A stretch of DNA of 64,000 nucleotides from Octopus sinensis (taxonomy: Eukaryota), in contig NC_043011.1 of the NCBI RefSeq assembly GCF_006345805.1, positions 53,208,464 through 53,272,463 of the forward strand. Reading direction: 5' to 3'. The notes beneath the pieces were generated by a model. It did no database searches. It was not told the origin of the DNA and saw only the letters and a list, made by a program, of their open reading frames with translations. Position 1 is the first letter of the stretch; each line of letters opens with the position of its first letter. Positions 5,791 through 39,500 of this stretch are shown here, piece by piece. A program made the translations under genes and the position numbers.

Positions 5791-5884
5791 TATAATAACT
5801 TAGAATAACTTAGAAAGGTTTGGGCCAGTGTTGGCCCCGGCCATGTCTAACTTAATAGCACCACCTGGCTATTATATATATATA

Positions 5885-6060
5885 TATAACGGGAAGGTTT
5901 ACGAAAATAAACAAAAGATGAAGGCAGTACAAACAAACAAATGTATTAGTATGGCGCTCAGGAATAGAAATAGAACAAGTCTTTTACGTTTCGAGCCTAC
6001 GCTCTTTGACAGAAAGATACACAGAAAAAAAACAAGGAGAGAAGCAAGGAGAGGAAAAAT
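5885..6060 (-). mobile_element. Penelope-like element terminal fragment in (TA)n, with degenerate hammerhead at 5981-6016
   Basis: Minus strand reads cttt-CTGTCAA-a-gagc(gtag)gctc-GAAA-cg-TA-aaag. A related end lies at 37699-37761 in the opposite orientation. Confidence 0.6.
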
Positions 6061-6317
6061 ATACATATATATATATATACATGCAATAGTGTGGTAAAAC
6101 GTTTGCTTCCAACCACATGGTTCCATGTTTAGTCCCACTTCATGGCACCTTGGGCAACTGTCTCCTACATTAGCCACAGGCTGACCAAAGGCTTGTGAGT
6201 GGATTTGAAACTGAAAGAAGCCCATTATATATATATATATATATCAGGATTAAATGAAAAGACAACAAACGGAAAATATGACATACCTATATATGTAACT
6301 AAAAAAAAGAACCGGTA

Positions 6318-6722
6318 TTCTTTTATTCTTTTATTTGTTTCAGTCATTTGACTGCGGCCATGCTGGAGCACCACCTTTAGTCGAGCAAATCAACCTCAGG
6401 ACTTATTCTTTGTAAGCCTAGTAGTTATTCTATCAGTCTCTTTTGCCGAACAGCTAAATTATGGGGATGTAAACACACCAGCATCGGTTGTTGAGCGATG
6501 TTGGGGGGACAAACACAGACACACAAACATACACACACACACACACACACACAAATATGACGGGCTTCTTTCAGTTTCCGTCTATCAAATCCACTCACAA
6601 GGCTTTGGGCGGCCCGAGGCTATAGTAGAAGACACTTGCCCAAGGTGCCACACAGTGGGAATGAACCCAGAACCATGTTGTTGGTAAGTAAGCTACTTAC
6701 CACACAGCCACTCCTGCGCCTA
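6318..6722 (-). mobile_element. SINE family A, near full length
   Basis: Reverse complement of the family A copy at 33100-33490, including the tRNA-like head ggcgcaggagtggctgtgtggtaag. Confidence 0.85.
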
Positions 6723-7105
6723 TGTGAACGTTAGTATATATTTTAGTATAGGTTTGATTCTAAGTTGTTACCGCATGAATATGTACGAATACATGTCTAG
6801 AGATATATATGCATATGTGTATGAGTATATCTCAAAATTATGTATGTGTATATATGTATATATAATATATTTTATTGATATATATTAATATATATAAATG
6901 TATATATATATGTATATATGTATGTATATATGTATATTTGTAAGTGTTTGTATTTTGATGAGTGTGCATATATGTGTTTGTATACGTTTGTTTTTTTTGT
7001 ATGTATATAATGTTTATATTTACATGTCACATGTTTGAGTGGAAACACCCGTGTCCATATAAATACATTTCATTTTGTAGGACTTTCTTTTTCAGTTAGC
7101 ATGTT

Positions 7106-7215
7106 TTTTTGATGAGCTTGTTATCATAAACCTCCTAAAGAGATTGGTACACTGCTGGCCATTATGTATCCTACCAGACATTTTGGAGTGCACCCGTCGA
7201 AACATATGTAGAAGA
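7106..7215 (+). ncRNA. Decayed hammerhead-ribozyme-like motif
   Basis: TTGATGA...gtc-GAAA-catatg-TA-gaaga. Stem III is palindromic; C3 and stem II are degraded. Confidence 0.4.
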
Positions 7216-7266
7216 CTTCATGACATCAATGGATTAACAACATCTTGAGTGTTCGTCTCCTTTTTA

Positions 7267-7298
<32 letters not shown>

Positions 7299-7344
7299 AA
7301 TAACAAATGAAAGACAGAAGTTGGAATATATGAGAATATATTAT

Positions 7345-7446
7345 TAATCACAACAATTGTTTCGACACATCGACTCCTCTTGTGGGATACACAAAAACTG
7401 GTTCAGGAGCATCCGGTGGTGCAGACATATCTCGTCGGGTGATAAA
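7345..7446 (-). ncRNA. Type I hammerhead-like motif with long stem II (U4>C variant)
   Basis: atcac-CCGACGA-gatatgtc...gatgtgtc-GAAA-caattg-TT-gtgat. Stem I is 5 bp, stem II 8 bp, stem III palindromic. Confidence 0.65.
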
Positions 7447-7844
7447 TAAATAAAAAATCTCGTTAAAATGACTGTTCCATAATGCACCTTTCCATTTTGC
7501 AGGGAGAAAAACAGCCAGACGGAGGAAAATTCTTCATATATATGGAAGATCCAAAAATAAAATTGTAGAAGACAAAAAGAGAAACGAACACTTAATCCAT
7601 CGAGAAAAAGTATTGAAAATAACCGTTAACCGATATGGATGTATAAACGCCCTGGGGCAAGAAGCATGGCATGAGGTTTACAGTTATTCAACTATCTCTT
7701 TCACATTCATATATTAACAATTTGGATCTTAATTATAAAAAAAATATGAAACCATTATTCTATGCTAATTTAATTAATTTTGTCAAGCTCCCTTTTCTGT
7801 TTGTAATTGTTTTTTTTAATTTTTATAGGTACTGTGAAGTGTGA

Positions 7845-8211
7845 GCCATGGCAAACAATTTAAATCAAGAGCAAAGAAAGTGGATACTAAAGCAGTATTG
7901 GAAGCCTGAAAATGCCGAGCAGGTGTGCACAGCATGACAAGAAGCCTTTTGCAACTCCTCCACCTTCACACCAGACAATTTATCAGATAAGAAATAAATT
8001 TGATACCACAGGTTCAGTGAGTAATGTACCAAAATCTGGATGCTGTAAGACTTCTGGGACTGAAAAAAAAATGAGATGTTAGTGGCTACATTTGTGAACA
8101 GTCCAAAGAAGTCCATGCTAGAACTATCCATACCAAGAACATCAATGTAATAAAATGTTTTAAAAGAAATTTAAAGTGCCTACATGATAACTGTAAATCT
8201 ACTTTTGGGCC

Positions 8212-8218
<7 letters not shown>
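7845..8218 (+). mobile_element. Tc1/mariner-superfamily remnant (N-terminal HTH of transposase plus TIR-like end)
   Basis: MANNLNQEQRKWILKQYWKPENAEQV...PPPSHQTIYQIRNKFDTTGSVSNVPKSG with a stop and a frameshift. Ends acttttgggccaccc|ta. Confidence 0.6.
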
Positions 8219-8248
<30 letters not shown>

Positions 8249-8472
8249 TCATTTAGCGTCCGCTTTCCATGCTAGCATGGGTTGGATGGTTCAACTGGGG
8301 TCTGTGAAGCCAGAAAGCTGCATCAGGCCCAGTCTGATCTGGCAGTGTTTCTACGGCTGGATACCCTTCATATATATATATATATACTCAAAATAAGCAA
8401 CAAGAATGACTCTGGTAATTTGGTACGATCGTTTGATATGAAAATTTTTGTATTAATGGAAAACCTCTATAA

Positions 8473-8558
8473 TTGGCTGATGAGTGCTCAGCATTTTAAA
8501 ACTGTTGTAATACTTACAACATTTAATAAAATGATGTAGTACGAAACGATCGTACCAA
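8473..8558 (+). ncRNA. Type I hammerhead ribozyme (Penelope-like-element type), intact core
   Basis: ttgg-CTGATGA-gtgct...agtac-GAAA-cgatcg-TA-ccaa. All conserved core nucleotides are present, with a G10.1-C11.1 pair, a GUA cleavage triplet and palindromic stem III. Confidence 0.8.
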
Positions 8559-8937
8559 ATTCTTGTTGCTTATTTGGATTCTTGTTGCTTATTTGGATTA
8601 TAATCATCCAACGGATTTTTATGGATAACACCATACAGAATTCTGGTGCATCTAAATTAAGTACCATATTCATTTGAATCTAATTTTTTGCTGAACTTAT
8701 ATATATATATATAGGGAGAGAGAGAGAGAGAGAGGAATAAGAAAATGGAGGGGATCAATAGGTGGTATTCATCAACTTTTAGACATTATATTATGTCAAT
8801 GTATTTATTTATTTACTAAAATGACAATTACAACAATATACATACATGTATAACATATTATGCTTTACATATATAATATATAAAGATACCAGTAATTATT
8901 AAAATATATAACATACAGGAATAGAAATTGGGATAAT

Positions 8938-9061
8938 ATCTTACAGCTGTTTCAGCCAAGATGCAAAAATACCTCATTCTACCTTTATTCCTCCAGTAGA
9001 CTGAAGTAATTAGTGAATGAAATTGAGACACTTGGGTGTTTCTGTAGGCTTCGTCAGAGAT
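8938..9061 (-). ncRNA. Type I hammerhead ribozyme (Penelope-like-element type), intact core
   Basis: Minus strand: atct-CTGACGA-agcc...ggct-GAAA-cagctg-TA-agat. GUA cleavage triplet, palindromic stem III, ~90 nt insert in stem II. Confidence 0.8.
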
Positions 9062-10503
9062 TTTAGAAAGTACATAAGGTTATGTGTGTGTGTGTGTGTG
9101 TGTGTAAATATGATAATTAAGTAACCAGATGATGGATTTTTTTTTTTTTTTGCTCAGTAAGTGTTATTTCCTATTTGCTTCTACCTCGAAATCAAAGGAA
9201 ATGACTACTATTCCCTTCAAACTTTGCTTTTTGTGACCTGGACATCAATGTTTTGAAACTGACCTATTTTCCATTACATCTCAGACAGACTCAGAGCTGA
9301 GTTGCTGAAGCAGAAATATCATTATTGCAAATATTCTGCACAACACCACAGATTTGCTTGTTGCTTGCTTGACCATAACTACTTGAGCATGTCCCTTAGG
9401 GACTGACAATATGAGCGTTTCTGATCATGAGAATGAGTAGTGAGAGAGCATTATAGCAATGTGTTGAGAGGGATTCTACCAAGTTTGAATAAATCTAACA
9501 AAAGCAGAGTTTGAGGGAAATATTAACCATTCTTCATACTTTCTAGGGATAAGCAAACGGGAAACAGCAGTTGCTACCCAAGGACAAGGATCATGATACC
9601 TAATGCAATCTGGACGTAGATTTGATAATGTGGTCCTAAATGCTATGCATGCCTGAAAAAATAGCGGAGACATGACGGGCATAACTGGAACTTGTTTAAT
9701 TGTGTGTCTGCATGAATAATGGCTGAGATGAAGCTAAGTAACAACAACAACAACACAACAACAACAACAACTGCAATATTTTTTCTGTACATATAAACTC
9801 TACTAACCCATTTACGTGTGTTGTAGAGATCAAAGAAGCTTTATGAAAAAAAATCATGTTTGTGTACCTGAAGGTAAAAATATTAAAAAACATTGAATAT
9901 TTAGAATGAGATTAATAGAAAAAAACAATAATGGATGAAATACAATGTCAAGGTTATGTGTTGTTTTTGAAAACAAACAAAGTTGGCGGCGGCAGGGGGG
10001 TGGGGGTGATGTAGGGAAATAAAAACAAAAGATAAAAAACGGAAGAAAAATAAATCTACATTTCCAAGAGAGAAAAAAATGTACAAAAAAAAACAATGGA
10101 AAGCTAAGAACGGAATCGAATCATGCTTCCTTCCATTGTAAAGTAGTTTTAAGTAATTTGAAATAACCAAAACCAATTATTTGGATGATGTTATTAAAAG
10201 AAAGAAAAGAATGAAGACTATATAATAAAAAAAATCTTGGTAATAATGATGATGATTATGATAATAATAATAATAATGATAATAATAATAATAATGATAA
10301 TAATAATAATGAATGATAATAATCACAACTTATTGATTTTGTTTGTGGTGTGTTTTTCAGTTTTCTATTTGTGTGTGTGAATGTTACGTGTTATGTCCGT
10401 ATGATGTGTGTGTGTGTGTATGTGTGTATATGTGTATGTGTATGTATATGTGTGCATATTTGTATATATGTATGTATGTATGTATGCATGCTATATATAT
10501 ATA

Positions 10504-38199: not shown

Positions 38200-39500
38200 G
38201 CACATGAAGTACACATTCTCTCCAATCACTGCTGAACATCTACATTCACAGCCCAATATTTCACAACCATGTGGTTTCACATTTCTAACATATCCAATAG
38301 ATACTTGCTCACTGCTTCCTGTTTCATCATCATGCAGTTTTGAATCTCTGACACATTCATCGTACAGCTTCTCCAATGACTGCGGAATCTCTTCATTCAC
38401 TGCTACATGTTTCACTGTCATGTGGTATCACATTTTTGACATATACATCATTGTAGTCCCTCTAATCACTGCTAAACCTCTACATTCATTGATCCATGTT
38501 TCATGGCCATACAGAATTAATTTGTGACTTTACACATATATCGAACAAACTCTCCTATTTTCAGAATTTCACTGCTACATGTTTTACAATCACATAGTAT
38601 CACATTTTTTATCCATACCTCTACATTCACTGCTTTATGCTTCATGACCATACAGTATCAAATTTGTGACTTTTAAACAGAGTATGATATATAAACACAC
38701 AATCCCTCCTATAACTCTGGAATCTCTACATTCACTGCTACATGTTTAACTGTCATGTATCACATTTCTAACACATATATTATGCAGCCTTTCCATTGAG
38801 TGCAGAATCTCCACATTTATGGCTACAGCTGGCAGAAACGTTCAAATTCCGCCGAGGTTGATTTTGCCTTTCATCCTTTCGGGGTCGATTAAATAAGTAC
38901 CAGTTACGCACTGGGGCCGATATAATCGACTTAATCTGTTTGTCTGTCCTTGTTTGTCCTCTCTGTGTTTAGCCCCTTGTGGGTAGTAAAGAAATATATA
39001 TTTTTGACACATGCCTCTACATTCACTGATCCATGTTTCATGAACATACAGTATCAAATTTTTGACATCATACGGTCTCTCTAATCACCGTAGGATTTTT
39101 TCATTCACTGCTACATGTTTCACTGTCATGTAGCATCACATTTTCAACACATCTTTATACTTCCTCCAATCGCTTCCAACCCTATGCTCACTGCTCCACC
39201 TCACATGGTTATAAGATCTCTACACATATATCATGCAGTCTCTCCAATCACTGTCAAAAAACCCACTACATTCACAAATACATGTTTTACTATCAAGTAG
39301 TATCACATTTCTGATGTACATTATACAGCCTCTTCAATGACTTCAGAATCTCTACACCCATTGCTACATGTTTCACTGTTATGTAATACAGCATTTTTGA
39401 CACAAACATCTTTATAGTCCTTCAAATCACTGCCAAACTTCTCCATTCATTGCTCCACGTTTCACAGCCATAACGTAACGAATTTGTGACATATACGCAT
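38200..39500. repeat. Old diverged tandem repeat, interrupted by SINE B (~38830-38995)
   Basis: Recurring tctctacattcactgctacatgtttcactgtcatg..gtatcacatttttgaca motif. Confidence 0.75.

What the first reader, a model, noticed from the sequence alone, without database searches (positions are those of the whole stretch)
5981..9061. Cluster of five sequence-distinct hammerhead-ribozyme motifs in 3 kb
Seen: type I topology (stem I-CUGANGA-stem II-GAAA-stem III-UH-stem I') at 5981-6016(-), 7106-7215(+), 7345-7446(-), 8473-8558(+) and 8938-9061(-). Each has a different palindromic stem III (acgt, acatatgt, acaattgt, acgatcgt, acagctgt) and lies next to (TA)n tracts. Known: Penelope-like retroelements carry minimal hammerheads with palindromic stem III, proposed to cleave as dimers. 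Inference: several unrelated Penelope-like or retrozyme-like families piled up at one AT-microsatellite hotspot, leaving self-cleaving sites on both strands of whatever transcript crosses it.
Basis: partly seen in the sequence, partly recalled or inferred. Interest (0 to 1): 0.75.

Follow-up and report, generated by a model that had tools for sequence, protein, structure and literature searches.

The report
Pile-up of Penelope retrotransposon hammerheads
Five truncated tail ends of five different Penelope-like jumping-gene families, each with a hammerhead self-cutting RNA motif, lie within 3 kb beside TA repeats, likely from separate insertions; two copies carry a damaged core and the others would likely cut only as pairs, so the cluster is likely inert, though the families carry unusual hammerhead variants.

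Summary
The five motifs are real. Each belongs to its own high-copy repeat, and a hammerhead descriptor finds 4 in 3.2 kb against a mean of 0.02 in shuffles. Only H4 and H5 have a canonical CUGANGA core. H3 has U4C, as does most of its family. H1 carries G8A. All five trace to Penelope-like elements (PLEs): H2-H5 to Hydra-type and H1 to Neptune/Nematis-type GIY-YIG endonucleases. They are 5'-truncated 3' ends, and two pairs sit tail to tail at shared TA tracts. About 60,000 such motifs are estimated genome-wide, so roughly 1-20 clusters like this are expected without any function. None is a retrozyme, no two could form a mixed dimer, and no host exon was found. Two family-level oddities remain: helix II is 57-97 nt in H2-H5, and H1's family has a fixed A6U core (14,893 exact copies against 172 canonical) while N7 and H17 vary freely. 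The scan noted both oddities before on other DNA. Cleavage is untested.

The parts
5870..5889 (.). (TA)n tract at the 3' end of element 1
   Evidence: sequence; family homology ends here
5890..6059 (-). Element 1: 5'-truncated 3' end of a Neptune/Nematis-type PLE
   Evidence: extent; endonuclease ORF upstream on the same strand in L139 and L345
5980..6017 (-). H1, minimal type I hammerhead: core CUGUCAA (family A6U, plus G8A in this copy), extra A after A9, 4-bp helix II, stem III ACGU, H17 at 5985; likely inactive copy
6089..6725 (.). Two very abundant interspersed repeats (6089-6244, 6316-6725), likely SINEs (label recalled), between elements 1 and 2
   Evidence: 65-85 BLAST hits per position among the 145 non-self loci
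6721..7266 (+). Element 2: 5'-truncated 3' end of a Hydra-type PLE (oldest; 89% to nearest copy)
   Evidence: endonuclease upstream in L342 and L343
7131..7214 (+). H2, type I hammerhead: true core 7135-7141 CUAAAGA (G5A in this copy), 57-nt helix II region, stem III ACAUAUGU, H17 at 7210; likely inactive copy
7267..7302 (.). (TA)n tract shared by the converging 3' ends of elements 2 and 3
7303..7675 (-). Element 3: 5'-truncated 3' end of a Hydra-type PLE
   Evidence: endonuclease ORF upstream in L071/L153, L084/L159 and L075
7347..7443 (-). H3, type I hammerhead: core CCGACGA (U4C, majority state of the family), 68-nt helix II region closed by 8 bp, stem III ACAAUUGU, H17 at 7352
8386..8434 (-). 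Inverted 5' piece of element 4, starting at the family's shorter 3' end (PLE-type inversion and tail signature)
8433..8697 (+). Element 4: 5'-truncated 3' end of a young Hydra-type PLE
   Evidence: 128 nt identical in 15 listed matches (two overlap as one inverted pair); DKT-RT-endonuclease upstream in L341, RT and endonuclease in L340
8473..8558 (+). H4, type I hammerhead: canonical core CUGAUGA, 59-nt helix II rod (z -4.2), stem III ACGAUCGU, H17 at 8554
8698..8735 (.). (TA)n(GA)n tract shared by the converging 3' ends of elements 4 and 5
8730..9085 (-). Element 5: 5'-truncated 3' end of a Hydra-type PLE
   Evidence: linked to an endonuclease ORF by overlapping copies L309/L318/L313 to L211/L210
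8938..9061 (-). H5, type I hammerhead: canonical core CUGACGA, 97-nt helix II region, stem III ACAGCUGU, H17 at 8942

Best explanation
The 3 kb holds five 5'-truncated 3' ends of five Penelope-like retrotransposon families, each carrying its family's hammerhead motif, likely inserted one after another at TA microsatellites, and the cluster is likely inert. Shown: family membership, link to GIY-YIG endonuclease ORFs, ends at (TA)n, tail-to-tail pairs, core states. Inferred from known PLE biology: the endonuclease nicks AT-rich DNA, reverse transcription starts just 3' of the hammerhead and usually stops early, so only the hammerhead-bearing tail is copied. Each insertion leaves TA tracts that can be targeted again. 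In the intact element the hammerhead would cut as a homodimer through the palindromic stem III, possibly with help from the element's protein. Here two copies are damaged and the other three lack a partner, so little or no cutting is predicted.
For: Five separate high-copy families. Endonuclease ORF upstream on the same strand: H1 in L139 and L345, H2 in L342 and L343, H3 in L153, L159 and L075, H4 in L341, L340 and other loci, H5 by overlap. First (TA)4 lies within 105 nt of the motif in 26 of 29 H1 loci, within 138 nt in 29 of 30 H4 loci and within 69 nt in 22 of 30 H3 loci; from random points 13.5% fall within 120 nt. 5'-to-5' inverted partners in 8 of 29 H4, 4 of 29 H2, 3 of 29 H5, 2 of 29 H3 and 0 of 29 H1 loci. 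Ages differ: H4 identical over 128 nt to other copies, H2 89% at best. Genome density is 15 descriptor hits in 650 kb (about 63,000), giving 3.6 expected clusters of 4 or more in 3.1 kb under a uniform rate (1.3 from the first 450 kb, 10-19 using the flank rate). Published: Hydra PLEs carry hammerheads and insert in (TA)n, including one from Octopus bimaculoides (PMC8557442); PLE hammerheads are mostly single motifs on truncated copies, inactive as monomers and weak as dimers (PMC4209133); a purified PLE cuts AT-rich DNA and its hammerhead needs the protein (PMC11167929).
Against: The cluster is an extreme tail: 0 of 138 index loci had 3 or more other hits in about 3 kb, and only one had 2. 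Clumping is weak (14 hits in 396 kb of flanks against 15 in 650 kb of random DNA), so the expected number rests on small counts and does not subtract false positives (0-2 per 450 kb of shuffles). TA-end enrichment is weaker for H2 (7 of 13) and H5 (8 of 17). H5's endonuclease link is by overlapping copies, not in one locus. Order of insertion and empty sites in relatives were not seen. No cleavage or expression data.
Confidence: 0.85

Rival explanations
1. The cluster is a kept, two-strand RNA-cleavage trap that cuts or terminates transcripts crossing the locus.
For: Three of five copies keep their family's core (H3, H4, H5). Both strands are covered. The density is far above the genome mean (about 4e-7 for a fixed 3.1-kb window).
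Against: G8A in H1 and G5A in H2 arose in these copies or close kin. The hammerhead fold lies 4.0-5.6 kcal/mol above the minimum for H2-H5 monomers. Same-strand mixed dimers fail at stem I (0-1 pairs for H2/H4 and H3/H5). No host exon among 147 ORFs. H4 is too young to show retention.
Confidence: 0.06
2. Some motifs are non-coding retrozyme units that make circular RNAs.
For: Type I hammerheads with palindromic stem III also mark metazoan retrozymes (PMC7229834); unchecked notes report retrozymes elsewhere in this genome.
Against: No hammerhead-bearing tandem unit in the window. All five families lead upstream into endonuclease ORFs through long 3' UTRs. Only one H3 locus pair shows a 350-nt head-to-tail repeat (L087/L088).
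Confidence: 0.04
3. The motifs are chance matches in AT-rich repetitive DNA.
For: No Rfam hammerhead hit. Whole-motif folding z-scores are unremarkable for 4 of 5. Covariation in H2 rests on 2 pairs, each one event, and the number of such pairs does not exceed shuffles (464 of 500).
Against: 4 observed against 0.02 in shuffles. Five different sequences keep the same core and three stems. In H2, pairs are kept in 92.8% of cells against 31-47% for slid controls. In H1's family only N7 and H17 vary. The position at PLE 3' ends is the published one.
Confidence: 0.02

Closest known systems
Hammerheads of Hydra-clade PLEs (Craig et al. 2021, PMC8557442; seen: passages, section 11, supplement part 2 with the Hydra sheet and File S2, search hits in the supplement)
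   Same: Sense-strand type I hammerhead near the 3' end, (near-)palindromic stem III, (TA)n targets, endonuclease with CxCX5C linker, CxxC and CxH motifs and no CCHH, DKT motif. An octopus member (Hydra-1_Obim) is listed.
   Different: Region between A9 and G12 is 57-97 nt here against about 9-26 nt in the Hydra rows of File S2 (my count by eye). 3' UTRs are 0.4-2.7 kb and the H4 element is about 4 kb although truncated, against <3 kb. H3's family has U4C. None of the five has the Hydra-1_Obim motif.
[quoted passage not shown]
   Same: H1: no real helix III (GAAAC-GUH), extra nucleotide after A9, G10.1-C11.1 pair, 5-bp helix I, thousands of single copies on truncated elements.
   Different: Position 6 is U in 14,893 of 15,065 exact matches. 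The paper's passages name only U3-A8 as a core variant. Helix II is 4 bp against 7-8.
PAc Poseidon PLE in vitro (Frangieh et al. 2024, PMC11167929; seen: parts 1-2 of 4)
   Same: AT-rich target cleavage and two internal initiation sites giving a 'tail'; H4's family has two 3' ends about 107 nt apart. G8C abolishes cleavage there, which bears on H1's G8A by inference.
   Different: Different clade. The tail there is 30-40 bp. Protein-assisted cleavage is untested for these families.
Metazoan non-LTR retrozymes (Cervera and De la Pena 2020, PMC7229834; seen: passages)
   Same: Type I hammerhead, low GC.
   Different: Retrozymes are 150-450-bp non-coding tandem units with canonical loop-loop hammerheads; these are single tails of coding elements.

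Membership tests
Type I hammerhead ribozyme | Core C3-U4-G5-A6-N7-G8-A9 | tested here: inconclusive
   Met for H4 and H5; not met for window H1 (A6U, G8A), H2 (G5A) and H3 (U4C, a known natural variant per PMC3088659 passages)
Type I hammerhead ribozyme | G12-A13-A14, A15.1-U16.1 pair and H17 not G | tested here: met
   5 of 5
Type I hammerhead ribozyme | Stems I, II and III around the core, ends in stem I | tested here: met
   4 of 5 window copies with 4 or more bp in stems I and II. H2 at family level: 92.8% of cells paired, 2 compensatory pairs in 25 of 30 loci aligned. Stem III is 2 bp as a monomer (1 bp for H1).
Type I hammerhead ribozyme | Self-cleavage after H17 | not testable with these tools
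   No assay; indirect only (N7/H17 pattern)
Penelope-like element (EN+) | RT followed by C-terminal GIY-YIG endonuclease upstream of the hammerhead | tested here: met
   RT plus endonuclease in one locus for H1 (L345; the family's RT in L344 hits RVT_1, E 2.8e-7) and H4 (L341, L340). Endonuclease only for H2, H3, H5. Pfam GIY-YIG was weak (E 0.014 for L139) or absent; the call rests on motifs and on 39-50% identity of the H4 RT to full-length RT-EN proteins.
Penelope-like element (EN+) | 5' truncation, inverted 5' piece, optional tail | tested here: met
   window H4 has all three
Hydra clade (H2-H5) | CxCX5C linker before the GIY-YIG motif | tested here: met
   H4 and H5; region not read for H2 and H3
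Hydra clade (H2-H5) | CCHH absent; CxxC before E and CxH after N | tested here: met
   CxxC in all four; CxH intact in H2 and H4, degenerate in H3 and H5; no two Cys between GIY and YIG in H4 and H5
Hydra clade (H2-H5) | DKT and RWK motifs in the RT N-terminus | tested here: inconclusive
   DKT in the H4 element; RWK region truncated; both present in the homologs P0002 and P0004; RT not recovered for H2, H3, H5
Hydra clade (H2-H5) | Insertion into (TA)n | tested here: met
   (H4 14 of 14, H3 14 of 20, H2 7 of 13, H5 8 of 17 counting (CT)n)
Hydra clade (H2-H5) | Placement in the RT phylogeny with named Hydra families | not tested
   No tree built; only a by-eye likeness of the L341 RT to Hydra-1_Obim in the supplement snippet
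Neptune/Nematis PLE (H1) | CX2-5CxxC linker plus CCHH, endonuclease C-terminal | tested here: met
   CX4CxxC linker intact in L139; CCHH partly decayed; RT upstream (definitions). Neptune and Nematis not told apart.
Non-LTR retrozyme | Non-coding tandem units of 150-450 bp, each with a hammerhead | tested here: not met

The most novel reading that the evidence does not exclude
The H1 family is a natural hammerhead variant with U at the 'invariant' position 6 that is still selected as a ribozyme. It spread to at least 14,893 exact copies with U6 fixed, while only the two free positions of a hammerhead vary (N7 in all four states; H17 as A, U or C, never G). A6U would then be a working, probably dimeric and protein-assisted core. 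The Hydra-type families would add a second class with a 57-97-nt helix II arm that standard descriptors miss.
Probability: 0.45. Interest if true: 0.55.

Novelty: new variant of a known kind. Interest (0 to 1): 0.36.

Why it matters
The cluster itself matters little: it is a by-product of microsatellite-targeting retroelements in a genome with tens of thousands of these motifs. The families matter more. What PLE hammerheads do is open (PMC8557442 calls it unclear; PMC11167929 found cleavage dispensable in vitro). A lineage that spread massively with A6U, and one with U4C, make a direct test possible: if the variants cut, the core consensus is wider than assumed; if they do not, the fold is kept for another role such as protein binding. 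The long helix II arms and core variants also mean published descriptors and Rfam undercount hammerheads in this genome.

Tried and rejected
Rfam scans gave no hammerhead family. An antisense ORF upstream of H4, H2 or H5 was looked for and not found. The endonuclease in L101 first looked like H2's, but it belongs to another PLE nested in H2's 3' UTR. My first labels ('Poseidon' for H1, 'Neptune' for H2-H5) were dropped after checking motifs against PMC8557442. Mixed dimers in cis were rejected by stem I mismatch (H1's 3' stem I strand could pair 3 bp with H5's 5' strand, but the stem III lengths differ). Long helix II as a conserved rod: supported for H4 (z -4.2), marginal for H5 (-1.9), not for window H2 and H3 (-0.4, -0.1). 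Host gene search: 0 of 147 ORFs hit Pfam (147 of 158 filtered ORFs sent), so a long intron is not excluded. Sequencing runs: no RNA holder listed; no evidence either way. No reads were laid, so expression, cleavage ends and empty sites in relatives stay open. Luense et al. 2017 (PMC5785218) is not held and may already describe core variants. Paper searches 'hammerhead + A6U', 'octopus + hammerhead ribozyme' and 'hammerhead + octopus + Penelope' listed nothing on these variants; I saw listings only, except PMC8557442. PMC13282606 (passages) has no 'hammerhead' occurrence. Supplements of PMC4209133 and PMC3088659 were not read and may list A6U or long-arm cases. GAAAC-palindrome halves at 38413, 39121 and 39374 belong to a degenerate repeat with no core.
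Full report
Setting. The window is G000:C15:53,208,464-53,272,463 in a 2.72-Gb, microsatellite-rich animal genome. It is likely an octopus: a homolog search with an RT from this genome returned an 88%-identical stretch that a source names from Octopus. I call the five motifs H1-H5 from left to right.

Observation. All five GAAA-palindrome-UH halves are present. A strict core is found for H4 (8477-8483, +) and H5 (9057-9051, -) only. H3 has CCGACGA. H1 has CUGUCAA followed by an unpaired A, as in published minimal PLE hammerheads (PMC4209133). Alignment of the 30 best copies puts the core at 7135-7141, where the family has CUGAAGA or CUGAUGA and this copy CUAAAGA. My descriptor (up to 2 core changes, stems I and II of 4 bp or more, palindromic stem III) finds 4 of the 5 in 3.2 kb, against a mean of 0.02 and a maximum of 1 in 200 shuffles. 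It misses H2 in the window and in 27 of 27 H2 loci. Rfam does not see them.

Families. Each motif is a separate dispersed repeat. Core tallies among best-scoring copies, which are biased towards the window copy: H4 CUGAUGA in 29 of 29; H5 CUGACGA 16 and CUGAUGA 3 of 29; H3 CCGACGA 15 of 29, with U4 in only 2; H2 CUGANGA in 16 of 29, G5A in none of the 29. In H2, 25 of 30 loci were aligned (five left out: a duplicate, deletions, truncation). 92.8% of cells pair, against 31-47% for slid controls, with two compensatory pairs (stem I U-A/C-G, helix II G-C/A-U). Each is one change between two subfamilies, and the count of such pairs does not exceed shuffles.

What they belong to. Walking upstream through longer copies reaches GIY-YIG endonuclease ORFs on the same strand. 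H1: L139, and RT-endonuclease-H1 in L345. H3: about 0.4 kb upstream in L153, L159 and L075. H4: about 1.3 kb upstream in L341, L340 and others, with a DKT-bearing RT further up in L341. H2: about 1.5 kb upstream in L342 and L343. H5: by overlap, with the same endonuclease-to-UTR order in L309 and L318 (partly L313), joining L211 and L210, which carry H5. By the motif definitions in PMC8557442, H2-H5 are Hydra-type and H1 is Neptune/Nematis-type. No tree was built. That paper lists an octopus Hydra family with (TA)n targets and a short-armed hammerhead, so the association is known.

Anatomy of the locus. (TA)n - element 1 (-, 5890-6059) - two abundant repeats - element 2 (+, 6721-7266) - shared (TA)n - element 3 (-, 7303-7675) - transposase remnant - repeat - (TA)n - inverted piece 8386-8434 - element 4 (+, to 8697) - shared (TA)n(GA)n - element 5 (-, 8730-9085). 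All five lack their ORFs. Family 3' ends meet (TA)n far more often than random points. The region has 15 TA tracts in 3.4 kb against 21 per 10 kb on average. H4's family has two 3' ends about 107 nt apart, and the window copy uses one at each end, like the PLE tail explained by two initiation sites (PMC11167929; the match is my inference).

How unusual is the cluster? 65 evenly picked 10-kb stretches hold 15 descriptor hits (54 with none, 8 with one, 2 with two, 1 with three), or about 63,000 per genome. False positives are not subtracted (0-2 per 450 kb of shuffles). A uniform rate predicts 1.3-3.6 clusters of 4 or more in 3.1 kb; the rate in flanks of known copies (14 in 396 kb) predicts 10-19. 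Against this, 0 of 138 index loci had three or more neighbours, and the clumping ratio of 1.5 rests on few hits. The cluster is a real extreme, of a size expected a few times per genome.

Would it cut? Shown: core states; stem III of 2 bp as a monomer (1 bp for H1); self-duplex energies of -6.4 to -11.1 kcal/mol for the 8-nt palindromes; the hammerhead fold 4.0-5.6 kcal/mol above the minimum for H2-H5. Published: such motifs do not cut as monomers and cut weakly as dimers (PMC4209133), and one needs its protein (PMC11167929). Inferred: a dimer swaps both stem III and stem I partners, and same-strand pairs here give 0-1 stem I pairs for H2/H4 and H3/H5, so no cis dimer forms. G5A and G8A likely inactivate H2 and H1 (G8C abolishes PAc cleavage; the need for G5 is recalled). 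No host exon was found. The cluster is therefore likely inert.

Family-level variants. (1) A6U. Exact 25-nt patterns find 14,893 copies with CUGUNGA and 172 with CUGANGA, and 0 for the reversed controls. A scan that ignored the core found 20 further H1-like rows. After dropping three (the window copy, an index copy, one row shifted by a deletion), 17 of 17 keep C3, U4, G5, U6, G8 and A9, while N7 is A 4, C 4, G 5, U 4 and H17 is A 9, U 7, C 1, G 0. The GAAAC-GU part was fixed by the anchor, so it is no evidence. This pattern suggests selection on a hammerhead fold among source lineages, with U6 fixed. Against activity: A6C gives less than 0.1 per minute (PMC3088659 passages), and PAc does not need cleavage in vitro. 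(2) Long helix II: 57, 68, 59 and 97 nt in H2-H5, against about 9-26 nt in published Hydra rows; one non-Hydra row marked as deviating has a 35-nt loop. Only H4's arm folds clearly better than shuffles. Similar arms turned up in random stretches (L253, L270). (3) U4C in H3's family is a known natural variant with reduced in vitro activity. Unchecked notes of this scan report long arms and A6U on other DNA; I saw them after reaching both readings and do not count them as support.

Verdict. Observation partly confirmed; interpretation partly supported. The cluster is a pile-up of known PLE tails (confidence 0.85). The families are new variants of a known kind. Interest 0.36. The most novel open reading, a selected and working A6U core, has probability 0.45 and interest 0.55.

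Noticed in passing
window 7848-8070 (+): Broken transposase N-terminus (one stop, one frameshift); both pieces hit Pfam DUF4817 weakly (E 0.034 and 0.0009, below the curated cut-off). Likely a Tc1/mariner-type remnant (label recalled).
   Followed up: partly
window 6089-6244, 6316-6725, 8245-8372: Very abundant interspersed repeats, also bounded by TA tracts, present in many fetched loci; likely SINEs (recalled, not tested).
   Followed up: no
L101:345-1190 (G000:C2, near 59.281 Mb): A sixth, Hydra-type PLE with an open endonuclease frame, an inverted 5' piece and its own short-armed canonical hammerhead, nested in the TA-rich 3' UTR of an H2 copy.
   Followed up: partly
L344 (G000:C5:107,034,000-107,043,000): An H1-family RT-endonuclease fragment abuts the 3' UTR of an H5 copy; L341 has an H1 copy next to the 5' end of an H4 element, and L342 an H4 copy just behind an H2 copy. 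PLE-on-PLE neighbours recur.
   Followed up: partly
L270:2470-3287; L253:5066-5144; L035; L140; L107: Further long-armed hammerhead families (47-63 nt helix II region), one an inverted pair with U4C.
   Followed up: no
window 8559-8599: The window's H4 copy lacks 9 nt just after stem I and has a 19-bp tandem duplication; the core is unaffected.
   Followed up: yes
window 38300-39500: Degenerate repeat with recurring GAAAC-palindrome halves but no hammerhead core.
   Followed up: partly
L288, L289, L293 (neighbouring 150 kb): Four more minimal hammerheads at up to one core change, including a 5'-to-5' inverted pair in L289.
   Followed up: no
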